Shown one piece after another: positions 5,718 through 56,880 of a stretch of DNA of 64,000 nucleotides. Position 1 is the first letter of the stretch. Every line of letters starts with the position of its first letter. The position numbers and the translations under genes were made by a program. The notes below the pieces were generated by a model that worked only from the letters and a program-made list of their open reading frames with translations, was not told where the DNA came from and did not search any database. This DNA comes from Zootoca vivipara (lineage: Eukaryota): NCBI RefSeq assembly GCF_963506605.1, contig NC_083277.1, forward strand, positions 92,380,001 through 92,444,000. The letters run 5' to 3'.

Positions 5718-8700
5718 TCAGCGTGTCCACTGTATGATAATAACAGCTAAAAAGATGACAGATAAAATCAGGCGGGTGTAATAAAGCCCTTTCTCCATAA
5801 GGACCATTGTTTTATCCCACGCGACTGATTCAGGGTCACCCTGGTGTTCTTCTAGAGAGAGATGTTTCTTGATCTGTTGCAGTTCCATATTCAGATGTTT
5901 CAGAAACACCAAGTTGTCATCTTCACTGTCTTTTGCTGGCAAGGGAAATCCATCTGCCGGCTGGTTCTCTTTGGGCCTCCTGTCTCCTGTACAGATGAAA
6001 ATGGGGATATATGTTAATCTGTTAAGAAGGATATGTTTGGGAACAGACATTGTTTGAGAATAAAGAAATGTAGAGTTAAAGAACTGCTTATTTGATTCTA
6101 AATTCTGGTGTATGGTCCACTTGAATGTGTGTCGGATGCATTGCATCTGTTATAACGCAACGTGAAGCAAGATACCTCCACCTTCATTAAAACCAATGCC
6201 AGTTATTTGATTCCAGGCAGGGCCTGGGTTTTCCTTGCAAGACTCAAAGTGCTGGAGAAGACCCTGCGAGTCAAGAAGGCTCTTGCGGTGCAATTCTATG
6301 CATCCCTACTGAGAGCTAAGTTCCACCATCAAGTTTAGTTGAATGTTCTCCCAGAGAAGTGTTTCAGCCTTAAGGTATGCAGGTTAAGTGCCTCTAACAG
6401 AGGCAATATTAATATTTTCCTGTACGTAATGAATGAAAAAAGAGCTTGTACCTGATTTATGCTTATTTCCACTTTCTCTATTGCGTGAAAGTGCATGGAA
6501 GGGATCAGACATGACACATTTGAGGCTAAACAGAATGAGTGAAACTTGTGAAATTGCCCAGACCTTAGATTAATATGGATTGCTTCCTTCCACACTTACT
6601 TATTTGAGCTATCAAGTACATTTCACACATTACTCAGAAAAGCATACAAGCTTATTCCAACTGTACATTCTGGAGGGAGCTTATTTTTTTCCCTTTTTAA
6701 GAGTGTATATAAAGGGAGATGTAACCCAATTTTGATCGTATGTATAGTTTGCCAATTCTGATCAGGCCCTTAGCTGGGCCCCACAAATTCCAATTCCTAA
6801 GATGCATTCTCTCTGTTTGAAGATCCATTAGTGCCTTCTTGCCAAAGTGTAATGTAAACTTTATACAGGATGATAGGATGCCCTGCTAGCTATCAAGGCC
6901 GGATGGCTGGCCTTGTCTGACGCTACCAGTCTGACGCACAGACCATGCAAGATAGACAGGAACTCAAGCCCCCATACTCAAGGCTGCTTGAGGCTGCTAC
7001 CAGGGTACATTGACAACGTGTATGATAAGGTGCAGGACAGGAATCTTCCTGTATATGTAACCCTTGACCCCTTTACTTGCACACACTTACAGAGTGGATT
7101 CATGGGGAGGGGGTAGAGGAGCCCAAAAAGGGGATAAATGCCCCATGCAAACTGTCTTTCTTTGCTCTTGTCATAAAGCATCACCAAGTGCCTTTCTCTA
7201 TAGAGAAAATAAAACTCTTTCTCTGAGCTCAACCCCTCGGTGTCGGTTTTTGACTGTCTTATAGTAATGGGTGATGGTGCTTGATATCTGCACCCTTCCC
7301 CTGCTTTATAGGTGCCCCACCTCCTTATGGTAAATTGTTTACATTTCGGAAAACGCTTACCTAAATGGGTCGCCGGGCTCTCGCGTTCCTCTTTCTTCCT
7401 GCCCAGGATTCTATTCATGAGTTTATTCCCCTTGAAGGATGGCAACTTTGGTCTCTTCTCTTTGAGATAGAGTACAAAAGCGTTCTCCAAGATACCAAGG
7501 ACCAGAAATACAAACATCCCAGTGNNNNNNNNNNNNNNNNNNNNNNNNNNNNNNNNNNNNNNNNNNNNNNNNNNNNNNNNNNNNNNNNNNNNNNNNNNNN
7601 NNNNNNNNNNNNNNNNNNNNNNNNNNNNNNNNNNNNNNNNNNNNNNNNNNNNNNNNNNNNNNNNNNNNNNNNNNNNNNNNNNNNNNNNNNNNNNNNNNNN
7701 NNNNNNNNNNNNNNNNNNAGCTCTCTCAGCCCTCAGAGGGCTTTCCTTTAATGTGGAATGGGGAACCCAAGGACTCTTCCAGTGCTTGGAACTCTCAATG
7801 AGTCTTACCAATAGGCTTGCCCTTTGCTCCCTTTGAGTGTTTGCTTGGCTAGAACAGGCATCCCCAAACTTTGGCCCTCCAGATGTTTTGGACTGCAATT
7901 CCCATCTTCCCCGACCACTGGTCCTGTTAGCTAGGGATCATGGGAGTTGTAGGCCAAAACATCTGGAGGGCCGCAGTTTGGGGATGCCTGGGCTAGAATG
8001 TGTCCTTGAAATCAGAAGTGGCCTAGTGTGGTGGAGCCTGCCTCTTTCGCTTTCCAATAGTGACTTACCACTTACTGTCAGGGGGGGAGAGGAGGCAACA
8101 GAGAGGGGCAATGTGGGGTGAGTGCATCAGCAGAGCCTGTCTGGCACTCCTGCTAGTGTACTTGCACTTTGTCAAGCTCCTTCCCTTCCCAACCCCTTCT
8201 CTCTCTCCTAGTAAGCAGCAAGGTCTGGAGGGCAGCAACATGAGAAAACAGGCCTTTTCTGCAGTGGCTCCGTTTGTGGAATGCTCTCCCCAGGGAGGTT
8301 CACCTGGCACCTTCATTATACACCTTTAAGCACAAGTTGAACATTCCTCTCCAACCAGGCCTTTGGCTGATTGACATCTAATGCCCTTTTAAAATTCAGC
8401 TAGGTAGCCGTGTTGGTCTAAAGTGAAAACTATGGAGAGAACTGGTCTGAAGAGAGATATTGGATTCTTGTCTCATTACATATGCTATAACTATTTTTGG
8501 TCATCTGCATTCTATCCCTTGCTTTTTCCTGTAGGACTAATTGCAGTCATTAACAGTCATCAACAGGTTTACCATACCCATTGAGTCAATCACCCATCTC
8601 CTACTACCCTTCTGAGAAAAATCCCACCCCACCCTCCCACTATATATTAGGGTCTGTTGACTTCTGTTTCAGTGTATCTGAAGAAGTGTGCATGCACACG

Positions 8701-11700
8701 AAAGCTCATACCAATGACAAACTTAGTTAGTCTCTAAGGTGCGGGTGGGACGTGAACGTGGTGTTGTGCCAATATTTGAAGTGCTTCGACCATATTAAAG
8801 TGCTAAACAAATTGCTAAGGGGGTATTGTTATTCTATTTTTGTACCATGCAAGATAATGATGATTCACAAAATGTACCTCCAACTAAAAGTTAGTTACTG
8901 ACCCAGGGGCCTGCTCACTAACTAAATCACAATGGAAATTAGTCCAATGAAAGCAACCAAAACTATTTGACAGCCCCTAAGTGTTCAAAGGCTGCCGGCG
9001 CTGAAATAAGCCATGCAATAAAATGTGGTTTACCTATGACTGGTGGATGATCTGATGTTGCGGGTAGCATATCATTAAGAATCATCGACAAAAATGAGAT
9101 TTGAAGGATCAGTGTCATTTTGAAGGCAATCTTTTCTCCAGGAGAGGCAGATGCAAAAGAAATAGCCATATCCAGCAAGAAGAGAGTTAAAGTTGGGAGG
9201 ATCAGAACCATCACATACAAAATGGAGCGCCTCTTCATAGAAATCTGTCCCAAAAAAGGGGGAAATGAATACATAAATAAAAATGAAGATTACAGCAGAG
9301 AAATCGGGTCCTCCCTGCAAGAGAGGGCACACGTTGCGGTGGGCCCGACAATCAGGTCTAGGTGTTGGGGCGGGGACAATTGGAGCAGCCACAACACCCT
9401 ATTGGTGGTCCATCTGACAGGGCGCAATTGGGCTAAGGGCATGCCAATCAAAGAGTCAGATGGACCACTATTTAAGCGCTGCATGTGTCCGTAGAGAGCC
9501 TCCTTCTCCAGCATAGTGTATTGGAACACCCACCCACCACTCCCTAATTTTAGGGCTTCTGCTTGACCTTGCTATGCCGTCGTGTGTCGTCTGCTATTGC
9601 AGGGGCACGGCAGGAATTTTCCCCACTTGGCTGATTGGTTGTTGCCATTTGGGTTTCGCCTGCCGCGTAGCAATTCGTCACAACTTGTAAGGTTGGCGGA
9701 TAGGCTCTGGTTCATGCTGATAGGGGTGGAATGATCCCTTACCACCCTATCCACTGGTATTCCTCTTAAAGGAATCCATTGGACTTCTGGTTGGTATTCC
9801 CCCAAGTGGGGCTGTGCCCTTTCCAGAGTTCTGGGCACACATGGGAGAATCAGAGCCTGGCGGTCGTCACGTTCCCCGTCCAAGGTGTGAACCTGGCTGC
9901 TGACCCATGGTGCGCCCTGAGTCAGCGCTCCCCTAGGTAGCTTTGGGAACCAGAGCCTATGCTACCACGCACTTGATTTGTAATCAATAAAGTTGTGGCC
10001 TAAATTCTGCCAAAAACCAAACCAAAAATATCATAGCTGCCAAGTTCCGGCCTGAGAAATAAGGGACTGGACCGGAAGTAGCAGACTGAAAGTAGCGCTG
10101 CCGCCATTTTGGAACTGAGCGGAGCATGCTCAGAAGCTACTTTTGATGCTGCTCTGCCCTGTTCCAAAATGGCCGCCGCACCAGAAGTCGCGCCATTTTG
10201 GAACTGGGCAAAGCAGCATCAAAAGTCACTTCTGAGCATGCTCCGCCCAGTTCCAAAATGGCCGCCGCGCCAGAATAAACCGGGGGGAAACAAAAAAATC
10301 CGTTTTTTTTGCTGGGAACAGCTGGGAAAAAGGGGGTTTCCCAGGGAATACGGGAGACTTGGCAGCTATGAAAAATATGAGTCATGTCTGAATTTATTTC
10401 TAGGCCTAGGTTAAAGGGCTCCACACGCAATGGAACTCTCTTTTCAGTCTCATTAGTAGCATACATTCATTCATCCATAGTCCTTATTCTTAGCAACCCA
10501 TTGGTGGGTGGGACCACCACCTCCCCTCTTCCAAAAATGTTTCAGGAGGAAAAATGGGATATAAATGTAATATTAATAACAATAACAATTGTAGGAAACA
10601 ATGGAGCCCCTGGCAGGACCTGGAGTGGGATCCAACAAGCTGCCGCAGAGACCCTGAAATGGGTCCCTGTACCACTGAGGTATTTACCATTGAAGGAAAA
10701 CAAAGGTTTCTCTGTCTGGAATGGCCTGGCAGGCAAAATTTCAATAATCAGAACTTGATGGCACCAGGGCTGTGGAATGCCTTCCTCCTTGCTGAAATAT
10801 AAGAGACCTCCATCAGGGTTGGCATTCCACCGGCTCCTGTAGACATACCTATTTAGGCAAGCATTCCTCCCAAATGAACTTCTGATTTATTGTTTTCCCT
10901 TTTGGTTTAACTGTGTTTTGTTTTTAATCGAAGTGTCCATTATCAACATATTTCAAAGAACACTTGATTATTATTTTTAAGAAATGAAAACAAGCCAATA
11001 ACATACTACCCCTTTAAAATTTACCTAAAATCTAAGCAGCAGTTCTGAAAATAAGTGTGGTTTAAAACCCATAAGCATGAAAAACAAACACTAGCTACAT
11101 CTTTTTGTGTTCCCATGTTTTCTAAATGTATTAGAAACCAAATACCTCATAAGTGACAGTACTGAAGTTAATTATGTCATATTCCATGGTGTGCTCTATG
11201 ATCCTCAGTCCCTCAAACTTCCATTCCCCACTGGTCAAGTAATATTCGCGACTATCTTGGTTCGCCTTCCTGGAAGTTTTGGTGCTCATTATTTTCATTT
11301 CCTTATCTAGAGGCAGTAGAAGAGAAATGATACGGAAGGTTGTTACTTCAGTATAGAAAAACAGTCACATCCATATTAGGTCTTCCATTTGAGGTTGTGC
11401 CAAAACTGTTCCATCTTGTCCCACAGTTTGTTCAGTGTGTGAATTAAGCCCCGGTGTTTCATCACACCAAAAATGGTAGTGATGTATCAGTAGCACACAC
11501 ATGGTCAGCCTCCAATGGGAGCAACTCTGAATTAAATTTGAGAGGTGGCTTTGACCATTGGCAAGGGGAGCAAACATGCAGGGAAGAGTGATAATGGGGA
11601 GAGAGTGAAGAAAGATGCAGAAAACAGGGAATGTAAGGCACATTCAGAAAGACACAAGCTGAGTGTATAGTGGAGACCTCCTGATGAAGGGTGGGTAAGA

Positions 11701-14412
11701 AATACAGCAAACAAATAATAATGGCTCGTTCCCCATGCTAGTCCTACTTCACACCAACCCATTGGAAGTAATGGACATGACTTACCCAGTCTTATCTTAC
11801 AATATAATAAAATTGTAAGGCTGTCATCATGCTGCAATTGGAAATGCAGGCATTTTTCGCTTCTTACCACATCTGCAGAAATGTTGGGGAGGGGTGGAAC
11901 AAACAGGAGAAAATCTCCTCTTCATCCGTTGGTGGTTTGGAGTTCAACATGATAGTGAGTTCATGGGGTGCAAATTGGGGGTGTGCATTCAAGAGGGTAC
12001 AAATGAAGAGAGTGAAGCCAACTATCATGCCAGTTCAACGAAGTACTGTACAGGGTTACCTGCATGTATCGATGACATTATGCTTATGTTGCATTTTTGT
12101 TGATCGAAAGGAAACGCATGGACATCCAGACTGCAGGATGAAGTCAGTCGGTAGGCTTGAAACATTAGAATGTAACCAATGGCTGATACATAAGCATAAG
12201 GGCTTTGTGTGAACTTGTCTTCATCTGCCCTAAAGGTATTGTATTGTAATTAGGAAAGCTTTGCATTTTGCACAGATTAGAGAACCCCTAAGTCTGGCAC
12301 CTACGTGGAAAGCCTCATTGTTAAACAAAGAACTGTAAAGTTGGAAGAGACCCCAAGGGTCATCTAGTCCAACCCCCTGCAATGCAGGAATCTGTTTGCT
12401 CAATGTGGGGCTCGAACCCACAACCCTGAGATTAAGAGTCTCATGGTCTACCAACTATCTTGTTGAAACAACCATCTAAAGCAGGGGTGGTCAACCTGGT
12501 CCCTACCGCCCACTAGGGGGCGTTTCAGGATTCTAGGTGGGCAGTAGGGGGTTCTATGGTACAAGCTGAATCCTCCTTCCATCGAACACTGGTGGGCGGT
12601 AAGGAAACGTTACCATCAAGAAAGATGCATTAGTGGGCGGTAGGTATAAAAAGGTTGACAACCCCTGATCTAAAGGGTCAAAAATGTAGATATTGACTTC
12701 ATGACAATAATAAAACATAAAATATAACTGAATGGTGATATAAAATACTTATAACAAACAAATAATGAATCAAAACTTGCACAGTTTTCTAATTTATTTC
12801 CATGCCATCAGTGGGAAACTGGGGGTGAAGAACAAACAGAATGTGGAGGAGCCCTTAGACCAAACTCTGTGCCAGGAAGACTCGAGACAACCTGATCGCA
12901 GTCAAACAATGCAAAATTCACAGGTTCTTGCCTTAGTCCTGGCAATGGTGTCTGCATTTGTGCTCAGCCCCCAGCCCAGTGCTGTTAAACTTCTGGCTAT
13001 CATGGCAGGCGAGGGAGGCGGGTGGCACTGTGGGTTAAAGCACAGAGCCTAGGGCTTGCCGATCAGAAGGTCGGCGGTTTGAATCCCCGCGACGGGGTGA
13101 GCTCCCGTTGCTCGGTCGCAGCTCCTGGCAACCTAGCAGTTCGAAAGCACCTCAAAGTGCAAGTAGATAAATAGGTACTGCCAGCTCCTGCCATCCTGGC
13201 AGTTCGAAAGCACCTCAAAGTGCAAGTAGATAAATAGGTACTGCTACAGCAGGAAGGTAAACGGTGTTTCCGTGTGCTGCTCTGGTTTGCCAGAAGCGGC
13301 TATGTCATGCTGGCCACATGACTTGGAAGCTATACACCGGCTCCCTCGGCCAATAATGCGAGATGAGCGCCGCAACCCCAGAGTCAGTCATGACTAGACC
13401 TAATGGTCAGGGGTCCCTTTACCTTTACCTTTTATCATGGCAGGCAGCCTTCTCAATGCCTGGGAATGGATATGGTAAGTGGTTTCAGTACACGGCTGCA
13501 CCCAAAGCAACCCTATGAATTTGCCCTGAAAATGCAGTTCGGAAACACATTCACCATGGGATAAAAGCAGCATTACCGTTCATCTATGTAGAGGTCTGGG
13601 GTCCAAAAAAGGTTCACAGGCAAAGTGATATTCGTAATGTTACAGAAATCCAAGGGATCCCATGAGACATATTCATTATCCCAGTACTAGAGGAAAGAAA
13701 AAATATATAACTTAGAAAAAAATAAAATAAAATCATGGGAGGAAAGATCTGTTTGCTATTTACAGAGAAGAAATAGGACCTCACCACATACATCCAGAAA
13801 TAAAAAGTGACCACCTGTAATTTTTCTTGCTGCAAGGAACAAAAAGGGAAAAGATTAACACATTATCTTCCTCCTGTCCTAGAGAATTAACACAGAGACA
13901 GATACATTGGTGGTACAACTGAAAGGTGGGTGGGTGGAAGATGGATGTCCCTCTTTTAAAATCCCCCCATCCCCCACTGGCAGAACTGCTGGTGGCCCTG
14001 CCAGTCACACACAGCTAGAATTGAAGCTATGAATCCAGGGAGTGAGTGTTCTGCAATTTCTCCCCAACAGCTTGTATTTGTAAGGCAGTACCCCACACCC
14101 AACATCCATTCCCTTTCTTTGCCCCCTCCCCAGTATTTGTGCTTAGCCCCATCACTGGAGACCAAACATGCAATGATTATTCTCTCTTACCACTGAGAGG
14201 ATGGACACCAGGGTGAAGTCTAGATAAACTTCTACAGGCTCTTCCCAATTTTTCATAGGTATGGTGTATAAGAAGAGATCCTTATTGGAAGAGATGTTCA
14301 GATACTCGGCCACATCGTGGTAGCTACAATTCTGTTTCTGGGTGGCTTCTGGAGTAGGGACAAAATGAGAAGATGAATGTGTCAGTATGGTAAGATTCAA
14401 AAGTCCTTGTTC

Positions 14413-14448
<36 letters not shown>

Positions 14449-15268
14449 CAATTTATTACCTGCTCTTCAACCTAATGCTCCAGATTTGGTTATGCTGGGG
14501 AAATATTGGAGTTCAGTACCCTGTGGGTTCAGCCTGGATGGCCAACAGAATCTGGACACCAATTGTTAGTCAAATAGGACATTTATTTAGATATTGCAAG
14601 GCTGGTTTCACACAACCTCAACCAGCAAATAAGTTATGGATGGCACACCAAATATGAAAGAAGTATACACATTTATACAATTACAAGCACAGGGAAGCAA
14701 AGGGGCTGTTATTTCCCTATATGGCAATACGTCTTTCTACTAGCTTATACTGGTTTAATCTTTTTCCTCAACAGTTACAGCAATAGCTCCTGCACATTTG
14801 TTGTTACATCCTTCTCACATGGTTCCGCTGCAAACACAACCTTCACATTCTAGCCTTCACTTGCTCAGCCTTTTCCTCACACATTTCAAGTCTCTTTTAT
14901 TCCTTTATAATGTTATTCTCCCTTCCAATTACAATTAGAACACAACATTAAAAGCAGTTTAAAGAAACTTAAGAATACAAAAATAAGGCGGATGCTAAAA
15001 AGATACATCTCAAGTATCAAAAGCCGTAGCAGAGAGGTGCATCTAGGCAGAGTCAGACCGTATCCTTTCTCTCCTCTTCCTTTGCTGTGTACCATCATTT
15101 TGAAAGCCAGTGAACTTGAGAAACCGCTGCCTTTCATTCTAGCATCCATCCTACCTTCCATAAAGTCTCTTTGTTGATTTGTCAGCTCTTAAAGCTAGAG
15201 AGAGGAGAAGAAATGGTTTTACCTGGCACCCAAGGGAGTAGAAAACTAACCAAAACAGCTCTCCACAT
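5718..15268 (-). CDS. 5-HT3/ZAC-family Cys-loop ligand-gated cation channel subunit, copy A (9 exons, about 447 aa)
   Basis: Exons in transcript order: 15268-15223 (46 nt, signal peptide MWRAVLVSFLLPWVP), 14348-14191 (158), 13829-13785 (45, QEKLQVVTFYFWMYV), 13686-13577 (110, WTPDLYIDER), 12229-12060 (170, Cys-loop CSLDVHAFPFDQQKC), 11306-11146 (161, GEWKF), 9244-9034 (211, M1-M2 SPGEKIAFKMTLILQISFLSMILNDMLP), exon 8 ending at 7361 (M3; its first ~10 nt fall in the N gap at 7525-7718), 5986-5718 (269, MA helix and M4, TGA). All visible junctions are GT-AG and phases are consistent. The 45/110/170/161/211 exon sizes match the 5-HT3A gene structure as I recall it. Confidence 0.9.
7525..7718. 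other. Assembly gap (194 N) covering the acceptor and first codons of exon 8 of receptor copy A
   Basis: Run of N in the sequence; by analogy with copy B (174-nt exon 8) about 10 coding nt are missing. Confidence 0.97.
7855..7990. mobile_element. hAT-type MITE (CAGGCATCCCCAAAC TIR)
   Basis: Perfect TIRs with 8-bp TSD ggctagaa. Confidence 0.88.
8398..8742. mobile_element. Penelope-like element fragment
   Basis: The ctgaagaagtgtgcatgcacacgaaagctcatacc...tctctaaggtgc motif and ggtagccgtgttggtct are shared with 63225-63375; family from recall. Confidence 0.55.
9301..10429. mobile_element. Insertion unique to intron 6 of copy A; possible non-autonomous DIRS/Ngaro-like element
   Basis: Copy B reads straight across this site (cagcaaag-aatggtac near 21260-21275). 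No clear TSD, and an internal hairpin is present. Family assignment is tentative. Confidence 0.45.
10032..10370. mobile_element. hAT-type MITE (CATAGCTGCCAAGT TIR) nested in the 9301-10429 insertion
   Basis: Same TIR as 560-648, 8-bp TSD aaaaatat, and internal palindromic repeats (gccattttggaact...agttccaaaatggc). Confidence 0.88.
12330..12455 (-). mobile_element. tRNA-Lys-derived SINE with a CR1-type 3' tail
   Basis: Minus strand GTTGGTAGACCATGAGACTCTTAATCTCAGGGTTGTGGGTTCGAGCCCCAC (tRNA-Lys(CTT)-like, 5' truncated) joined to GGGTTGGACTAGATGACC...CTTCCAAC. Confidence 0.8.
12482..12667. mobile_element. hAT-type MITE
   Basis: TIR caggggtggtcaacc / ggttgacaacccctg with 8-bp TSD atctaaag. Confidence 0.85.
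13011..13432 (+). mobile_element. Sauria SINE with an internal 63-bp tandem duplication
   Basis: tRNA-like head and (ACCTTT)n tail; 13-bp TSD tatcatggcaggc; 13119-13181 is repeated at 13182-13244. Confidence 0.88.
14412..14446. repeat. (TTG)n microsatellite
   Basis: Seen directly in the sequence. Confidence 0.9.
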
Positions 15269-16610: not shown

Positions 16611-17563
16611 ATATTGAAATACAAAAGTATGAAGTGTGTTATTTGGGAAGGCAGCTTATTACATGACCAGCAAGTCATCACTAGTGCACAGGTAGCTCGG
16701 AATTATCTCACAAGCAGTGTGGCATATGATATACGAAGCATAGCAGCTTGTCATGCATGGTGGGGTTAATTGGTTGCATGTTTATTTGTGCTGTTCATGA
16801 AAATAGCAGTTATGGATGGAAGAATAGCAGTGGGGAACTAGCCATGCTAAGTGTGGGTGTTTCTTAAGCATTTAAAAGACAGGCAATGTCAGGGAGGATA
16901 GATACACAATTTATGAACTCAGTTTCCATACTTACACCACCCACATCATATTAAAATGACCACCTTTTTTTCCCCCAGAACCTCCTCTAATTCATCTTCA
17001 TCTTCAGCTAGGTAAGTCTTCATCAAAGCACTCCTGTTTTTGCACATTAGGTATTGATTATTCTGGGAAGTACGTTGAAACAAGACAAAATGTGCAGCTT
17101 GGAAGGAGCTCTTGGCAAAACGTCTACTCTTGGGGCCCCGTCTTATGCCAGTGGCTTTTCTCTGATGTACCTGGATAACAGCCCCCAGAAGTTACCGTGT
17201 AAAATTCCCACAAAGCCTCCAATAGAGTGATGCTCTGGGGAATTGTGGGAAATTTAAACGGCAACTCCTGGACCCAGACACTTTTTTCAATGGAGTGCAT
17301 GGATGTTGTGTCAGCAGTACTTCCTAATAATTGGCTTTGCGAGGTTCGATTGAGTCGTAAATTTTGCAATGTTTTTACATATTTCCAAGCATGAAATGCT
17401 TTCGTAAGCAAACTCCCAACAGCAAACGCCACTTGGCTGAGACATTTCATCAGGTGGCATTTACTGACTTTGTACAAATAACAGATTGGTAAGCTAGCAT
17501 ACTTGTATAATGGGCATTGGCTATACACCCCTTGTTCTACCACAAATACCGATAATATATAAT

Positions 17564-20500
17564 TTAGAATGTCCACTGTATGGCAACAAAAGTTAAAAAG
17601 ATGAGTGAGAAAATCAGGCGGGTAAAATAAAGCCCTTCCTCCACAAGGAGTATCGTATTATCCCACACGACTGATTCAGAGTCATCCTGGCATTCTTCTA
17701 GGGAGAGATGTTTCCTGATCTGTTGCAATTCTGCATTAATATGTTTCAGAAACACCAAACTCTCTTCGGCATGGCACTTTTCTGACAAGGATAATCTGCC
17801 TGCCTGCTGGCTCCCTTTGGGCAGCCCGTCTCCTGCATGAAAGAAAATGAAGACTGCATATGTTAACATGTTAAGAAAATCCTATGTAGGAACAGACGTT
17901 GTTTGAGAATTAAAAATGGAGAGTTAAAAAACTACCGGCTGTTTTGATTCTAAATTCTGGCATTTGGATCACCTGTCGAAGCAACCTAATAGATGCAGAA
18001 GGCCATCCAGAGGGCCATATCTCAATTCTGGATATATCCAGAAGGCCATATCTCAATTCTTGGACAATGGATCCAACCACATGTTCTTACCTTACCTCTT
18101 TCATCAGAGTAATGAGGACAGCCTGATGCTTCAAGTCCATTTCTTACATTAAAAAGGTAAAGGGGCCCCTGACCATCAGGTCCAGTCGTGTCAGACTCTG
18201 GGGTTGCAGTGCTCATCTCGCTCTATAGGCCGAGGGAGCCAGTGTTTGTCCGCAGACAGCTTCCGGGTCATGTGGCCAGCATGACAAGCTGCTTCTGGCG
18301 AACCAGAGCAGCGCACGGAAACGCCGTTTACCTTCCCGCCGGAGCGGTCCCAATTTATCTACTTGCACTTTGATGTGCTTTCGAACTGCTAGGTGGGCAG
18401 GAGCTGGGACCGAGCAACGGGAGCTCACCCCATTGCAGGGATTCGAACCGCCGACCTTCTGATCAGCAAGCCCTAGACTCTGTGGTTTAACCCACAGCGC
18501 CACCTGGGTCCCTATTTCTTACATTACACAGAAACAAAGTCAGCCTTGTTCTAGCTGTACATTCAGGAGGGGCTGGACATTGTCTCCATGACTTTATGCC
18601 ATGAAGTGACCCATACATTAGCTATATAAAAAAACTAACTAAATAAACAGCCAATTATTTATGTCCTCCTGAAAATGTACTGTGAAAAAGTTCTGGATTT
18701 TTTTTTTAAAAAAGCACTGGATTATAGTGCTTGACATTTGCCCCCTTCTCCCTCTTTTATCAATCTTTTCCATTATGTAAGAAAAAGAAAAAGAAAACAT
18801 TTTGGAAAGTGCTTACCTAAATCAGCCACAGGCTTCTCGGATTGCTTTTTCTTCTTTCTCAGAATTATATTCATAAATTTATTCCCCGTGAAAGGTGGGG
18901 AATCTGGTTTCTTCTGTTTAAGATAGAGTACGAAAGCATTCTCCAGGATACCAAAGACCATAAATACAAACATCCCGGTGAAAAACATGGCTGTGTTGGA
19001 GAAGAAATGGATGGTAAATATTTGGCCCTTCAGGGGACTGTTCTTTTAAGCTAGAGTGGGAGGGGCCTGGCAGGAAGCAGAAAAGAAATGGGGAGTGTTG
19101 TGGCACTGAGAAGAGATGCTGTAGGAACCACAAAAGTAACATGTGGGTTGCTGGTTTGGTGCTCCTGTGTCTGTAGATGCTTTGTCTGCGATGGGATGTG
19201 TGTATGGTAAAGATGTTGGTTGTTTTTGGGTGAGCTTGAGATAAGTTGAGTGGGAATTAGGTCTAACTCCATAACTCCAAAGGAATGTGGGGGAGGGGTA
19301 GTGATGGAGCCTGCGATAGTGACAATGGGTGATGGTTCTTCTCCCCACCAGATTTTTCGGGCATCTGATCACCAGTGTAACTACAGCGGCAAATGGGCCA
19401 GATTGCTTGCAGAAACTTGTAGAAGCTCTAGTTCTCCTTTATGAGAATTAAATGTTCCAAAACTCACACACTTGGTAGATTATAGAAGGTATAAAACAGG
19501 CATCCCCAAACTCGGCCCTCCAGCTGTTTTGGGACTACAGTTCCCATCATCCCTGACCACTGGTCCTGTTAGCTAGGGATGATGGGAGTTGTAGTCGCAA
19601 AAACAGCTGGAGGGCTGAGTTTGGGAATGCCTGGTATAAAATAAGGATAAATCTAAAAAATACACCAAAGCATTGAAACACAAAACCGAGTCATCTTGCC
19701 CTCTTTGGCTAGCATGGAATCCTTCTCTCTGAAATGCATAATACAGTAGTGAAATAGAGATTTCCATGGCCAATCAAATAGAGTCATCATTAAAAAGACT
19801 ACATCTCTCTTCCTGTCTTGCTCCTGCAAAGGAACCCATGGGACAAGACGGGTTAGTTGTTGCAGCACCACGGAGAGTTCCTAGGGGGATAAGTTGCTCA
19901 ATCTGGAGTTGGAACTGGACTGAGGCCTCTACCATCAGTCCACAACTCTTATATGATCAACTGCCTTTTGGAAATCCAGACTCCCTTAAAGGGCCACCTT
20001 CTAGCCTGAAAATGGACATTGCTCTTGGGTCCCATGGCCTCCCACTTGGTGTGATTCCTGTGCTGTTCGACTGTGCCATGTACTGGGGTTCCTCAGGCCT
20101 AAGTGGAGACACCTGTCCCATCTCTGATTCTGTGGACCCTGGCTTCTATAAATCCTGGTGCTGTGGCAGATATTAAAGCAGCTCTGGCCACCTGTTCCTT
20201 TGTCCTACCTTTTCCTTGAAGGAGTGCCAGCTTCCAATCCACAGAACACTGAGGATTTAACTCAGTTGGGATTCACTCCTAACTCCTGGGAGTAAGTCAT
20301 ATTGACTTCAATAGGACTTACTTTTGGCTGGGCATGGTTAGACTTATGCTGTTGTGCTGTGCACACCTTTGCCGAAGATGCATAACACACTGCAGGCCTT
20401 TGCTGCAGTTCACAATCGGTAGGAAGGTGTTACTGTCAATGTTGAACTAAAAGCTACTATAGCAGGCATCCCCAAACTTCGGCCCTCCAGATGTTTTGGA

Positions 20501-23500
20501 CTACAATTCCCATCATCCCTGACCCCTGGTCCTGTTAGCTAGGGATCATGGGAGTTGTAGGCCAAAACATCTGGAGGGTCGCAGTTTGGGGATGCCTGTA
20601 CTATAGCATAGTGGCTGCAAAACAGGATGTCTTCCCTAGGACAAATCTATCAGGGTGGCGAGCTAAACTCCCTCATTCTTTGCCCCACACCTGAGATATA
20701 TGGATAATAATACCGAGATACCTTGCAGAGCTGTTGTAAGATCCGCAAGTTCATGTCATTGAAGTGCTTTAAAATGTACTAAACAAACGCTAAGGAGTAT
20801 CTTTATGCTAGTTCTGTACAATGCTAGGTAATTACGATTCACAAAATAATATCACCACGCCAGCTAAAAATCAGTTACTGACTCAAGGACCCACTTGCTG
20901 GGCCACAATGTAAATAGGTCCAATGAATGCAACCAAAACTATTTGACAGCCCCTAAAACTGTTCAAAGGCTGCCAGTGCTGAATAATCCGTGCAGTAAAA
21001 GGTGGTTACCTATGACTGGTGGATCATCTGATGTTGCTGGTAGCATATCATTCAGAATCAATGACAAGAGTGAGACTTGCAGGATCAGCGTCACTTTGAA
21101 AGCAATCTTTTCTCCAGGGGAAGCAAGCGCGTAAGAAATAGCCATATCCAGCAAGAACAGAGTAAAAGTTGGCAGGATCAGAACCAACACATACAAAATG
21201 GATTGCCTCTTCATCGAAACCTGTCCCCCCCAAAAGGACCAAACGAGAATGAAGATTACAGCAAAGAATGGTACTATCCTTTCAGTCTCATTAATAGCAT
21301 CAATTTGCCCATAGTCCTTATTCTTAGCAGCCTAAGAGTGGGTGAGACCATTATTTTCCCTCTTCCTAAAATGTTTCATGGAAAGTGTGGGATAACACTG
21401 TCTTTGACACAATGACATCCAACCTGCCCACAAACTAACTAAATAAACAGGTCATCTGGAAGCACCCAAGTTGTGTTTGCTTCTGCAACACATCTACTAA
21501 CCCAACACATGCTTACTTCTTCAACGATCTTGCTAGATAAATGTGCATAGGATTGCAACCTCAGGATGCTATTCTGCTTGTATTGATGCAGCTTGAACGA
21601 TTCCTTAAAATCAAAGTGTCCATCATCAACATATTGCAAAGGGCAATTGATTTATCTTTTTGAAAACGAGCCAATAATGGTTGGTTGGCATCCGTCTGTC
21701 TCAGGAGACAGTAAAGGATGTGCCTTTGGGGAGTGAAGTCAAACCGCTGGAGAGATCAATATGGGAGAGACATGTTTGCTTGCAGCTGGGGCAGATGAAG
21801 GCATCCAGCTGTGCTGCCGCAGATGCACCATGGCGTTTCTTCTCTCTGGGTTCCTCCCAGCAGTCATTCCTTCTCTGGTCACTGCTGTGGATACATGACC
21901 TGACTGCTTGTCTCCAGGCTCTGCAGTTGTCTGGATGGGGTTCCTACATGGTGGGGCTGATGTTGCCAGCCTTCATCTTTGTAACACAGAGTTGGTCGGC
22001 CAATGGGCTTTGTGCCCGAAGCCAGCTCCCCATAAAGCACGTCCTTGGGGGGGGGGTCCTGCCATATTCCATCCCGTGGACATGACCACGCTGCCCACAT
22101 AGATGTGACAGAGAAAGGAGTGTAGACATGCTAGGAATGTGGGCTTGCAAGAGCACATCTTTGCTTGAGACTCTGTCCTGTCATGTGTGGCTCAAAATCT
22201 TCCTGACGCAGTGCATGTGGAAGACATTGAGGCAACACCCCTGATGCCCATGACTCACTTCCATAAAGCAGTGCGCTCAACACACAAGCCTGGCAGACCT
22301 TCATCTTGGTAAATTTACTACCCTAAAAATTTAAGCAGCATGTCTGAAATTTTGCTTAAGCATAAAAACGAACACAAGTTTTGTCTTCAGCATAAAACCA
22401 AACACTCTATATACAGTGGTACCTCGGTTTAAGTACACAATTGGTTCCGGAAGTCTGTACTTAACCTGAAGCGTACTTAACCTGAAGTGAACTTTCCCAC
22501 TGAAAGTAATGGAAAGTGGATTAATCCATTCCAGATGGGTCCACAGAGTACTTAACCTGAAGCGTACTTAACCTGAAGCGAACTTTCCCATTAAAAGTAA
22601 TGGAAAGTGGATTAATCCGTTCCAGACGGGTCCGCGGAGTACTCAACTTGAAGCATACTTAACCCAAGGTATGGGTGTAATTGGTTCTGGAAGTCCGTAC
22701 TTAATGTGAAGCGTACTTAACCTGAAGCGAACTTTCCCACTGAAAGTAATGGAAAGTGGATTAATCCACTCCAGACGGGTCCGCGGGGTACTTAAACTGA
22801 AAGTACTCAAACCGAAGCGTACTTAAACTGAGGTATGACTGTATAGGGATATCTTTCAGTGTTCCCATGTTTTATAAATGTATTATAAACTAAATACCTC
22901 ATAAGTGACAGTACTAATGTTGGTTGTTTCATATGGCATCATGTTCTCTATGACCCTCAGTTCCTCAAACTTCCACTCTCCACCACTCAAGTAAGATTTG
23001 TGACTATCTTGATTTGCCTTCATGGAAGATTTAGAGCTCTTCATCAGTAGTTCTTTCGCTAGATTCAGCAGGAGGCAAATGATATAGAAGGTTTTGTTAT
23101 TATTATTATTTCTGATTTTTTACTTTATTAATAAATGACAAAAATTACAGAAAAATGTTAAAATTTGAAAAAGCAAAAGCATTACATCGTACATTTCATT
23201 ATTCATTATAGATAAATCAGTTCTATTCCGAATGCACATAAATAGATCATTTTAGTAGTGATATTTGTGAGCCCTCTTAGGTCTTCCTTTTGAGGTTGTG
23301 CCATAACTGTTCCATCTTGTCCCACAGCTTGCTCAGCATGTGAATTAAGCCCCAATGTGGCATCACACAAACACATGGTCAGCCTCCAATGGGAGCAACT
23401 CCGAATTAATTTTGAGAGAAAACTTTGACCTGGGAGCATTGGCAGGGGGAGCAAACATACAAGAAAGAGTGATAATAGGGAGAGAGTGAAGAAAGATGTG

Positions 23501-51464: not shown

Positions 51465-56880
<5,416 letters not shown>

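What the first reader, a model, noticed from the sequence alone, without database searches (positions are those of the whole stretch)
11146..13829. Canonical serotonin-binding residues are missing
Seen: loop B reads CNISIMSSIHA in A and CNLTMTTIYS in B, with no Trp. Loop D reads FYFWMYV in A and FYFWLLV in B. Loop C reads HTMEYDIINFST in A and NMMPYETTNIST in B, with no vicinal cysteines. The loop-A Glu (IDER / IEER) and loop-D Trp are kept. Known: 5-HT3A needs the loop-B Trp (W183, cation-pi), loop-D Arg (R92) and loop-C Tyr (Y234), and nAChR alpha subunits have the loop-C Cys pair. Inference: these subunits probably cannot form the principal face of a 5-HT or ACh site, so they either bind a different ligand or act as accessory subunits.
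Basis: partly seen in the sequence, partly recalled or inferred. Interest (0 to 1): 0.7.

Follow-up and report, generated by a model that had tools for sequence, protein, structure and literature searches.

The report
Orphan serotonin-receptor-like channel lineage in lizards
Three intact neighbouring lizard genes encode channel subunits of an old, unstudied side branch of the serotonin 5-HT3 receptor family that lacks the serotonin-gripping residues, so they likely form a cation channel opened by some other molecule rather than by serotonin.

Summary
The residues are as reported. Genes A and B, plus a third copy (C) just outside the window, are intact nine-exon Cys-loop subunit genes. The 5-HT3A Trp183 position is Ser in A, Thr or deleted in B, Pro in C; Arg92 and Glu236 are also lost. 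Corrections: Tyr234 is kept as Phe in A and Tyr in C; missing vicinal cysteines say nothing, since 5-HT3A lacks them too; the kept loop-A Glu is family-wide. The loss is no lizard oddity: the genes sit in a separate bony-vertebrate lineage (sturgeon to birds), apart from HTR3A/B, HTR3C/E and ZAC, where 2 of 100 rows carry Trp183. The lizard has its own canonical HTR3A, HTR3B and ZACN. No mammalian member was found. Pore and gating residues of a cation channel are kept, while pocket positions vary more than other exposed positions (crude test). Best reading (0.5): cation channels with a non-serotonin ligand; rival (0.3): accessory partners of 5-HT3A. No function was tested. The scan noted the same cluster before in another lizard genome. 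Databases label the genes '5-HT3A-like'; ten paper searches found no description of the lineage.

The parts
5718..15268 (-). Gene A: 9-exon 5-HT3-family subunit gene, 447 aa, no internal stop
   Evidence: Exon model with GT-AG junctions (the 5' boundary of exon 8 is inferred from gene B's exon length); exon 5 is 100% identical to database protein P0001
15223..15268 (-). Gene A exon 1 (start codon, hydrophobic signal-peptide-like N-terminus)
   Evidence: one contig of a guessed-RNA run joins exon 1 to exon 2, skipping 874 nt
14191..14348 (-). Gene A exon 2 (N-terminal helix with extra Cys23, beta1)
13785..13829 (-). Gene A exon 3, 45 nt, loop D: W90 kept (13796), R92 to Tyr (13790)
13577..13686 (-). 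Gene A exon 4, loop A (D-E-R for N128-E129-F130) and extra Cys98
12060..12229 (-). Gene A exon 5: loop E, Cys loop, loop B; W183 position is Ser173 (12072)
11146..11306 (-). Gene A exon 6: loop F (D204 kept) and loop C (Y234 to Phe at 11166, E236 to Thr, no vicinal Cys)
9034..9244 (-). Gene A exon 7: pre-M1 Arg, M1, M2 with -1' Glu (9136), 6' Thr, 9' Leu, 20' Asp, M2-M3 Pro
7361..7534 (-). Gene A exon 8: M3 and start of the intracellular loop
   Evidence: 5' boundary inferred; tblastn
5718..5986 (-). Gene A exon 9: MA-like helix, M4, stop
   Evidence: helices 429-454 and 458-494 in the model of the orthologue
17564..27154 (-). Gene B: tandem paralogue, 9 exons, 446 aa, all GT-AG, no internal stop; 70% identical to A (294 of 419)
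26329..26373 (-). Gene B exon 3, loop D (W90 kept, R92 to Leu)
26114..26223 (-). Gene B exon 4, loop A (E-E-R)
24508..24674 (-). Gene B exon 5: Cys loop and loop B, one codon shorter than in A; 183 position Thr or deleted
22898..23058 (-). Gene B exon 6: loops F and C (Y234 to Ile, E236 to Thr)
21010..21220 (-). Gene B exon 7: M1-M2 with -1' Glu, 6' Thr, 9' Leu, 20' Asp

Best explanation
A and B (with C next door) are intact subunit genes of a separate, old branch of the 5-HT3 family of pentameric channels that has kept a cation pore but not the serotonin site, and they likely assemble among themselves into a cation channel that would be opened by a non-serotonin small molecule bound at the subunit interface. 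Shown: intact genes, the 5-HT3A-like fold of the orthologue's model, loss of W183/R92/E236, kept pore and gating residues, a branch apart from HTR3A/B, HTR3C/E and ZAC, and the lizard's own canonical HTR3A/HTR3B elsewhere. Inferred: pentamer assembly without 5-HT3A; cation selectivity (from the -1' Glu); a ligand at the interface, where A offers W80, Y82, Y131, Y133, F143, F224 plus E119, R120 and D194, a pocket unlike the amine box; different ligands for different copies.
For: Intact open frames and GT-AG junctions; dN/dS 0.20-0.31 in M1-M3 and 0.19-0.42 in the extracellular domain between the three paralogues; one spliced contig of A. Model of orthologue P0002 mean pLDDT 83.6, best matches 5-HT3A. 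Tree of 40 rows: the lizard genes lie in a 21-row clade (100/99) of fish, coelacanth, frog, caecilian, turtle, bird, crocodile and squamate proteins, apart from HTR3A/B (100/100), the HTR3C/E group (85/90) and ZAC; joining the squamate genes to marmoset HTR3E is rejected, p-AU 0.0006. Across 101 lineage rows: Trp at 183 in 2 of 100, Arg at 92 in 2 of 86, but acidic -1' in 95 of 101, 6' Thr/Ser 95 of 101, 9' Leu/Ile 100 of 101. Pocket positions change more often on the tree than other extracellular positions (P 0.002 wide, under 0.001 tetrapods) and than exposed-proxy positions (p 0.031 and 0.005). Independent tandem expansions (three here; three named in each of Mauremys and Gopherus). Own HTR3A keeps W90, R92, E129, W183, Y234, E236.
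Against: No functional data at all. Every characterised non-A 5-HT3 subunit fails to form functional homomers and acts with 5-HT3A (PMC3504740). An acidic -1' is also kept in 16 of 18 HTR3C/E-group rows, so it does not mark homomer-formers. The pocket excess is not seen within the squamate A/B set against exposed positions (p 0.30), nor in 4 of 5 pairwise comparisons at p under 0.05; the exposure proxy is crude, loop C and F columns are the least reliably aligned, the squamate ZAC set also shows an excess (P 0.024), and relaxed constraint on an unused site could look similar. The model is of a single chain of a Podarcis orthologue, not a pentamer. The wider 25-row clade has only 85/75 support and the root rests on a long ZAC branch.
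Confidence: 0.5

Rival explanations
1. Accessory subunits: A, B and C co-assemble with the lizard's 5-HT3A, leave serotonin binding to A-A interfaces and tune conductance, calcium entry or desensitisation, filling the place that HTR3C/D/E fill in mammals.
For: All tested non-A subunits behave so (PMC3504740). No HTR3C/E-type gene was found in this lizard assembly (best exon matches are HTR3A/HTR3B at 57% and 53%), and no mammalian member of this lineage was found, a reciprocal pattern. The lineage shares an extra cysteine pair with the HTR3C/E group. Complementary-face W90 (8 of 8) and D204 (16 of 16) are kept in the squamate A/B set.
Against: Only 24% identity to 5-HT3A (97 of 406); orthology to HTR3E rejected; repeated expansions and raised pocket variability are not expected of mere spacers; fish carry both this lineage and HTR3C/E-group genes.
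Confidence: 0.3
2. ZAC-like behaviour: homomeric cation channels with spontaneous opening or gating by protons or metal ions rather than an organic ligand.
For: ZACN lies 1.4 Mb away on the same contig; ZAC shows that this family can gate without the amine box and opens spontaneously (PMC13036004); the extracellular domains are acidic (net -14, -9, -6).
Against: The human ZAC zinc residues are not matched: Y176 (5-HT3A 181 position) is Met in A, F67 (71 position) Thr, R88 (92 position) Tyr/Leu/Phe; loop C is full length, not short as in ZAC; identity to lizard ZAC is 19% (68 of 353). Lacertid ZAC itself lacks Y176, so this test is weak.
Confidence: 0.13
3. They are divergent but working serotonin receptors, as their database name suggests, using a rebuilt site (F224, E119, W80, Y82).
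For: E129 and W90 kept, aromatic at 234 in A and C; database names.
Against: W183 makes the critical cation-pi contact (PMC3504740) and is highly conserved in chordate 5-HT3A (PMC9977066); E236 and R92 also lost; pocket not conserved across the lineage; a canonical HTR3A exists.
Confidence: 0.05
4. Decaying duplicates with no channel function.
For: Three 2026 RNA runs (about 6% of each read) laid no exon read on exons 1-4 of A, but the tool counts that as no test.
Against: Three intact frames, dN/dS well under 1 in the membrane part, 86-95% identity (372 of 423 to 398 of 419) to Podarcis orthologues, one spliced contig, orthologues across bony vertebrates.
Confidence: 0.02

Closest known systems
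5-HT3A subunit (HTR3A; mouse 4PIR, 6HIQ, human 8AXD)
   Same: Best sequence and structure match; Cys loop, pre-M1 Arg, -1' Glu, 4' Lys (A, B, C), 6' Thr, 9' Leu, MA-like helix; same exon breaks as the lizard's HTR3A over the exons compared; W90, E129, D204 kept in A and B.
   Different: 24% identity; W183, R92, E236, Y153, F226 replaced; extra cysteine pair; separate branch and chromosome; true HTR3A is on contig C15.
5-HT3B, C, D, E accessory subunits
   Same: No canonical principal face; extra cysteine pair shared with the HTR3C/E group (15 of 17 and 16 of 18 rows).
   Different: Not orthologous; locus is beside MRPL58 and KCTD2, not 11q23 or 3q27 (human places from PMC9977066); -1' Glu kept where the HTR3B rows have Thr and marmoset HTR3E has Asn.
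Zinc-activated channel (ZAC, ZACN)
   Same: Cation-type 5-HT3-family relative without W183; same chromosome arm, 1.4 Mb away.
   Different: 19% identity; own gene exists; human zinc-site residues unmatched; long loop C; MA-like helix present, which mammalian ZAC lacks (PMC13036004).
nAChR alpha subunits (e.g. alpha7)
   Same: Same fold (Z about 27-29), -1' Glu.
   Different: No loop-C vicinal cysteines, no loop-B Trp; lower sequence scores than 5-HT3A.
Diversified chemosensory Cys-loop receptors (cephalopod chemotactile receptors; recalled, no call)
   Same: Pattern only: tandem expansion, conserved pore, variable pocket without the neurotransmitter box.
   Different: Different ancestry (nAChR-derived in cephalopods, recalled); no sensory expression or ligand shown here.

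Membership tests
Cys-loop pentameric ligand-gated ion channel, cationic | Ligand-binding and four-helix membrane domains (PF02931, PF02932) | tested here: met
   Both Pfam families over cut-off in P0001, P0008, P0010; model matches 5-HT3A, Z 29.8, rmsd 4.1, 351 aligned
Cys-loop pentameric ligand-gated ion channel, cationic | Cys-x13-Cys loop with FPFD, pre-M1 Arg, M2-M3 Pro | tested here: met
Cys-loop pentameric ligand-gated ion channel, cationic | -1' Glu, 9' Leu in M2 | tested here: met
   A, B, C all E and L; role of -1' Glu from PMC3504740
Cys-loop pentameric ligand-gated ion channel, cationic | Pentamer assembly and ion current | not testable with these tools
   Needs expression and electrophysiology
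5-HT3A (HTR3A orthologue) | Loop-B Trp183 | tested here: not met
   Ser / Thr-or-gap / Pro
5-HT3A (HTR3A orthologue) | Loop-D Trp90 and Arg92 | tested here: not met
   Trp kept, Arg replaced by Tyr / Leu / Phe
5-HT3A (HTR3A orthologue) | Loop-C Tyr234 and Glu236 | tested here: not met
   Phe / Ile / Tyr at 234, Thr at 236 in all three
5-HT3A (HTR3A orthologue) | Groups with HTR3A; locus beside HTR3B | tested here: not met
   Separate clade; canonical HTR3A/HTR3B pair on C15
5-HT3C/D/E (HTR3C/E orthologue) | Groups with mammalian HTR3E | tested here: not met
   AU p 0.0006 (one mammalian row, group named after the tree was seen)
5-HT3C/D/E (HTR3C/E orthologue) | Functions only with 5-HT3A | not testable with these tools
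   Needs co-expression
ZAC | Groups with ZACN | tested here: not met
   own ZACN at C2:90.98-90.99 Mb
ZAC | Human zinc-site residues F67, R88, Y176, E194 | tested here: not met
   Three mappable positions are Thr, Tyr/Leu, Met; E194 could not be aligned
nAChR alpha subunit | Vicinal loop-C cysteines and loop-B Trp | tested here: not met

The most novel reading that the evidence does not exclude
Bony vertebrates other than mammals carry a whole unrecognised family of ionotropic chemoreceptors derived from the 5-HT3 family: a locus between MRPL58 and KCTD2 that expanded independently in lizards, turtles and fishes, kept its cation pore, diversified its pocket to sense environmental, gut or skin chemicals, and was deleted on the way to humans.
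Probability: 0.2. Interest if true: 0.8.

Novelty: new variant of a known kind. Interest (0 to 1): 0.45.

Why it matters
Reviews state that vertebrate genomes hold only five 5-HT3 subunits (PMC8634148, passage). The tree here shows a further lineage, present from sturgeon and coelacanth to birds and lizards, hidden under the automatic label '5-HT3A-like'. That label can mislead: a zebrafish gill atlas read a '5-HT3A-like' gene, the top marker of a neuron-like cluster, as a serotonin target (PMC9203529); whether that gene belongs to this lineage I could not test. Finding the ligand is a direct oocyte experiment and would either add a new transmitter or sensory channel class in non-mammalian vertebrates or show a second, independent set of accessory subunits. 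The bare observation, missing serotonin residues in a non-A subunit, is ordinary.

Tried and rejected
Alignment artefact at W183: rejected (ungapped HMMER alignment; 11 of 11 gap placements in B non-aromatic). ZACN identity: rejected. Orthology to HTR3C/E: rejected. Idea that medaka 'olZAC' (8WGE), a zinc-gated homomer of doubtful orthology, is a member of this lineage: not supported; it is absent from the best 60 of 259 PDB matches to the lineage profile and its loop B differs. Expression: no RNA holder on record was listed; three raw RNA runs of unknown tissue laid no exon read on A exons 1-4, which the tool counts as no test; expression of exons 5-9 and of gene B was not examined, so tissue is unknown. 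Zebrafish CR759836.1 could not be placed in the tree. No complex prediction was run: a pass would follow from likeness to solved pentamers. Literature: 10 searches found no paper describing this lineage; Holbrook 2009 on HTR3C/D/E evolution is not held and supplements of PMC9977066 were not read, either of which may list these genes.
Full report
What is there. The finding covers exons 3-6 of a minus-strand gene (A, 15268-5718). A tandem paralogue (B, 27154-17564) lies upstream, and a third (C) begins 1.1 kb beyond the window's left edge. Each has nine exons and an open frame (447, 446, 443 aa); every junction I could read is GT-AG (the acceptor of A's exon 8 is not readable in this copy). Exon 5 of A is identical to a database protein named '5-hydroxytryptamine receptor 3A [Zootoca vivipara]' on a contig of the same length as C2, so the window is from the common lizard. 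A and B are 70% identical (294 of 419), each 47% to C, and 24% to a 5-HT3A. dN/dS between the three is 0.20-0.31 over M1-M3 and 0.19-0.42 over the extracellular domain; over the intracellular loop plus M4 it is 1.11 for A-B and undefined for the C pairs. One contig of depth 3.4 in a guessed-RNA run of the same organism label joins exon 1 to exon 2 of A: thin, but a spliced form.

Checking the observation. The quoted loops are correct. Against solved mouse and human 5-HT3A the orthologue of A aligns without gaps through loops D, A, E and B. With sturgeon 5-HT3A (P0088, whose numbering equals mouse numbering at W90, R92, E129, W183, Y234) as reference: W90 W/W/W in A/B/C; R92 Y/L/F; E129 kept in all; W183 S / T-or-gap / P; D204 D/D/K; Y234 F/I/Y; E236 T/T/T. 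B's loop B is one codon short and none of 11 in-frame gap placements puts an aromatic at 183. W183 makes the cation-pi contact with serotonin and Y234 is part of the aromatic box (PMC3504740, parts 1-2 of 5 read); W184, Y235 and E237 (human numbers) are highly conserved in chordate 5-HT3A (PMC9977066, section 18). So a canonical serotonin principal face is very unlikely. Three qualifications: an aromatic remains at 234 in A and C (Y234F is tolerated in 5-HT3A; recalled, no call); 5-HT3A has no vicinal cysteines either; and the loop-A Glu is kept in 96 of 100 lineage rows and in the ZAC rows, so it may be structural.

What the genes are. The same assembly holds a canonical HTR3A (W90, R92, E129, W183, Y234, E236 all present in the exon matches) next to HTR3B on contig C15, and ZACN 1.4 Mb away on C2. 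A search with A's M1-M2 exon gave five matches: A, B, C, HTR3A, HTR3B; a search with marmoset HTR3E found no closer gene. A search with the C orthologue gave 55 named hits from squamates, turtles, a crocodile, birds, caecilians, a frog and teleosts, none mammalian. In a maximum-likelihood tree of 40 rows (chosen from the 67 to fit the time limit, dropping near-duplicates, some fish rows and five long-branch rows), rooted on ZAC, the lizard genes sit in a 21-row clade (bootstrap 100, SH-aLRT 99) whose tetrapod part roughly follows the species tree; four more rows (bichir, coelacanth, two amphibians) join at only 85/75; HTR3A/B (100/100) and an HTR3C/E group with marmoset HTR3E, shark, gar, lungfish, frog and teleost rows (85/90) lie outside. 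Forcing the six squamate rows together with HTR3E is rejected (p-AU 0.0006; group named after seeing the tree). C split from A/B early in squamates; A and B group together against gecko and Hemicordylus copies (100/99), with dS 0.32. An extra cysteine pair (C23, C98) is present in 79 of 88 and 97 of 99 lineage rows and in 15 of 17 and 16 of 18 HTR3C/E rows, but in 1 of 4 and 0 of 5 A/B rows and in no ZAC row: either ancestral, or a hint that the lineage is nearer HTR3C/E than the tree says.

Neighbourhood. Upstream lie an RF-1-domain gene (exons 45898-40710, matching the MRPL58 part of a fused lizard prediction) and a coiled-coil gene that I recognise as CDR2L (recalled; no family hit). Downstream of C lie a BTB gene (KCTD2-like) and a RING/B-box/SPRY TRIM gene. 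A human 17q25.1 gene list runs CDR2L, ICT1 (MRPL58), ATP5H, KCTD2 with no channel gene between (PMC3548333, passages). With no named mammalian hit, this suggests loss of the locus in mammals; 112 of 147 representatives are unnamed and could only be placed by their nearest named hit, so the loss is likely, not shown.

Pocket versus pore. The alignment held 136 rows (87 of the first 158 proteins that covered the core, plus named hits and my three models; it contains near-duplicates). In the 101 lineage rows Trp183 occurs in 2 of 100 (both Microcaecilia), Arg92 in 2 of 86, Glu236 in 2 of 100, whereas -1' is acidic in 95 of 101, 6' Thr/Ser in 95, 9' Leu/Ile in 100, 20' acidic in 91. Fourteen pocket positions change more often on the tree than other extracellular positions (0.41 against 0.29, P 0.002; tetrapods 0.30 against 0.18) and than 104 exposed-proxy positions (p 0.031; tetrapods 0.005), but not within the 16 squamate A/B rows (p 0.30); pairwise, A and B differ at 7 of 14 pocket sites against 49 of 173 others (p 0.08), B and its Podarcis orthologue at 6 of 14 against 25 of 173 (p 0.015), and three other pairs show nothing. 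The HTR3C/E group shows no excess (P 0.32); eight squamate ZAC rows do (P 0.024), which weakens the test. Within squamate A/B, W90, E129, D204, a small residue at 183 and Phe/Leu at 153 are steady, as if a different, conserved pocket exists in that subgroup.

How it most likely works. The model of the A orthologue (pLDDT 83.6) has the full subunit fold with an MA-like helix and matches 5-HT3A best. The -1' Glu governs cation selectivity in this family. I infer a depolarising cation channel, built from A, B and C alone or mixed, gated through the usual Cys-loop, pre-M1 Arg and M2-M3 Pro coupling by a ligand other than serotonin (0.5). The main rival is an accessory role beside 5-HT3A (0.3), the rule for all tested non-A subunits, and favoured by the apparent absence of HTR3C/E in this lizard. 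ZAC-like metal, proton or spontaneous gating is possible (0.13), though the human zinc residues are unmatched (PMC13036004, passages; alignment). Serotonin gating (0.05) and decay (0.02) are unlikely.

Novelty and score. The genes are annotated, under a misleading name; the 2023 survey sorts sequences into A-E only in the parts I read (PMC9977066: abstract, section 9 part 1 of 4, section 18, passages), and a review counts five vertebrate subunits (PMC8634148, passages). Ten searches of the open library found no account of this lineage; subscription papers and supplements were not seen. The scan's own note e1-10286114 reports the same cluster in another lizard genome; it agrees but is no independent support. 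The missing residues alone are ordinary for a non-A subunit; an old, expanded, orphan channel lineage with a directly testable ligand question is of moderate interest: 0.45, new variant of a known kind.

Noticed in passing
window 29077-33941 (-): Gypsy-type LTR retrotransposon: 1386-codon open frame (33598-29441) with RT, RNase H and integrase domains, flanked by two 300-nt direct repeats that are 100% identical, so a very recent insertion; its near repeat lies 1.9 kb upstream of gene B's start, same orientation.
   Followed up: partly
L001:8905 to L002:9449 (G000:C2, just left of the window, -): Third paralogue C, 443 aa, intact; 183 position Pro, 234 Tyr, 2' Asn, 20' Ser, so its pore differs from A and B.
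   Followed up: yes
window 17172-17324 (-): The N-terminus of database protein P0002 (Podarcis orthologue of A) matches DNA downstream of gene B's stop (78% over 51 aa): a likely annotation error. The Zootoca records also lack loop D: P0001 starts at the end of exon 3 and P0008 skips the 45-nt exon 3.
   Followed up: partly
window 40710-45898 (-): MRPL58/ICT1-like RF-1-domain gene; a Phrynocephalus prediction fuses it to the channel gene (P0193), showing the same neighbourhood in an agamid.
   Followed up: yes
window 51468-56880 (-): Exons of a coiled-coil gene that I recognise from memory as CDR2L; no curated family hit.
   Followed up: partly
L006:6850-L005 about 3200 (G000:C2:90.98-90.99 Mb, -): Lizard ZACN; lacertid ZAC has Ser where human ZAC has the zinc-binding Tyr176, so lacertid ZAC may not be zinc-gated in the human way.
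   Followed up: partly
L019:387-5302 (-): Another long-ORF Gypsy-type element (1270 and 418 codons) about 8 kb upstream of ZACN.
   Followed up: no
G000 whole assembly: No HTR3C/D/E-type gene found (60 candidates scored), whereas fish, lungfish, frog and mammals have that group: possible reciprocal loss.
   Followed up: partly
P0163 (Crocodylus), P0191 and P0030 (Microcaecilia): The crocodile member has Phe at -1' and Asn at 2'; the two caecilian members are the only lineage rows with Trp at 183, natural comparators for ligand tests.
   Followed up: no
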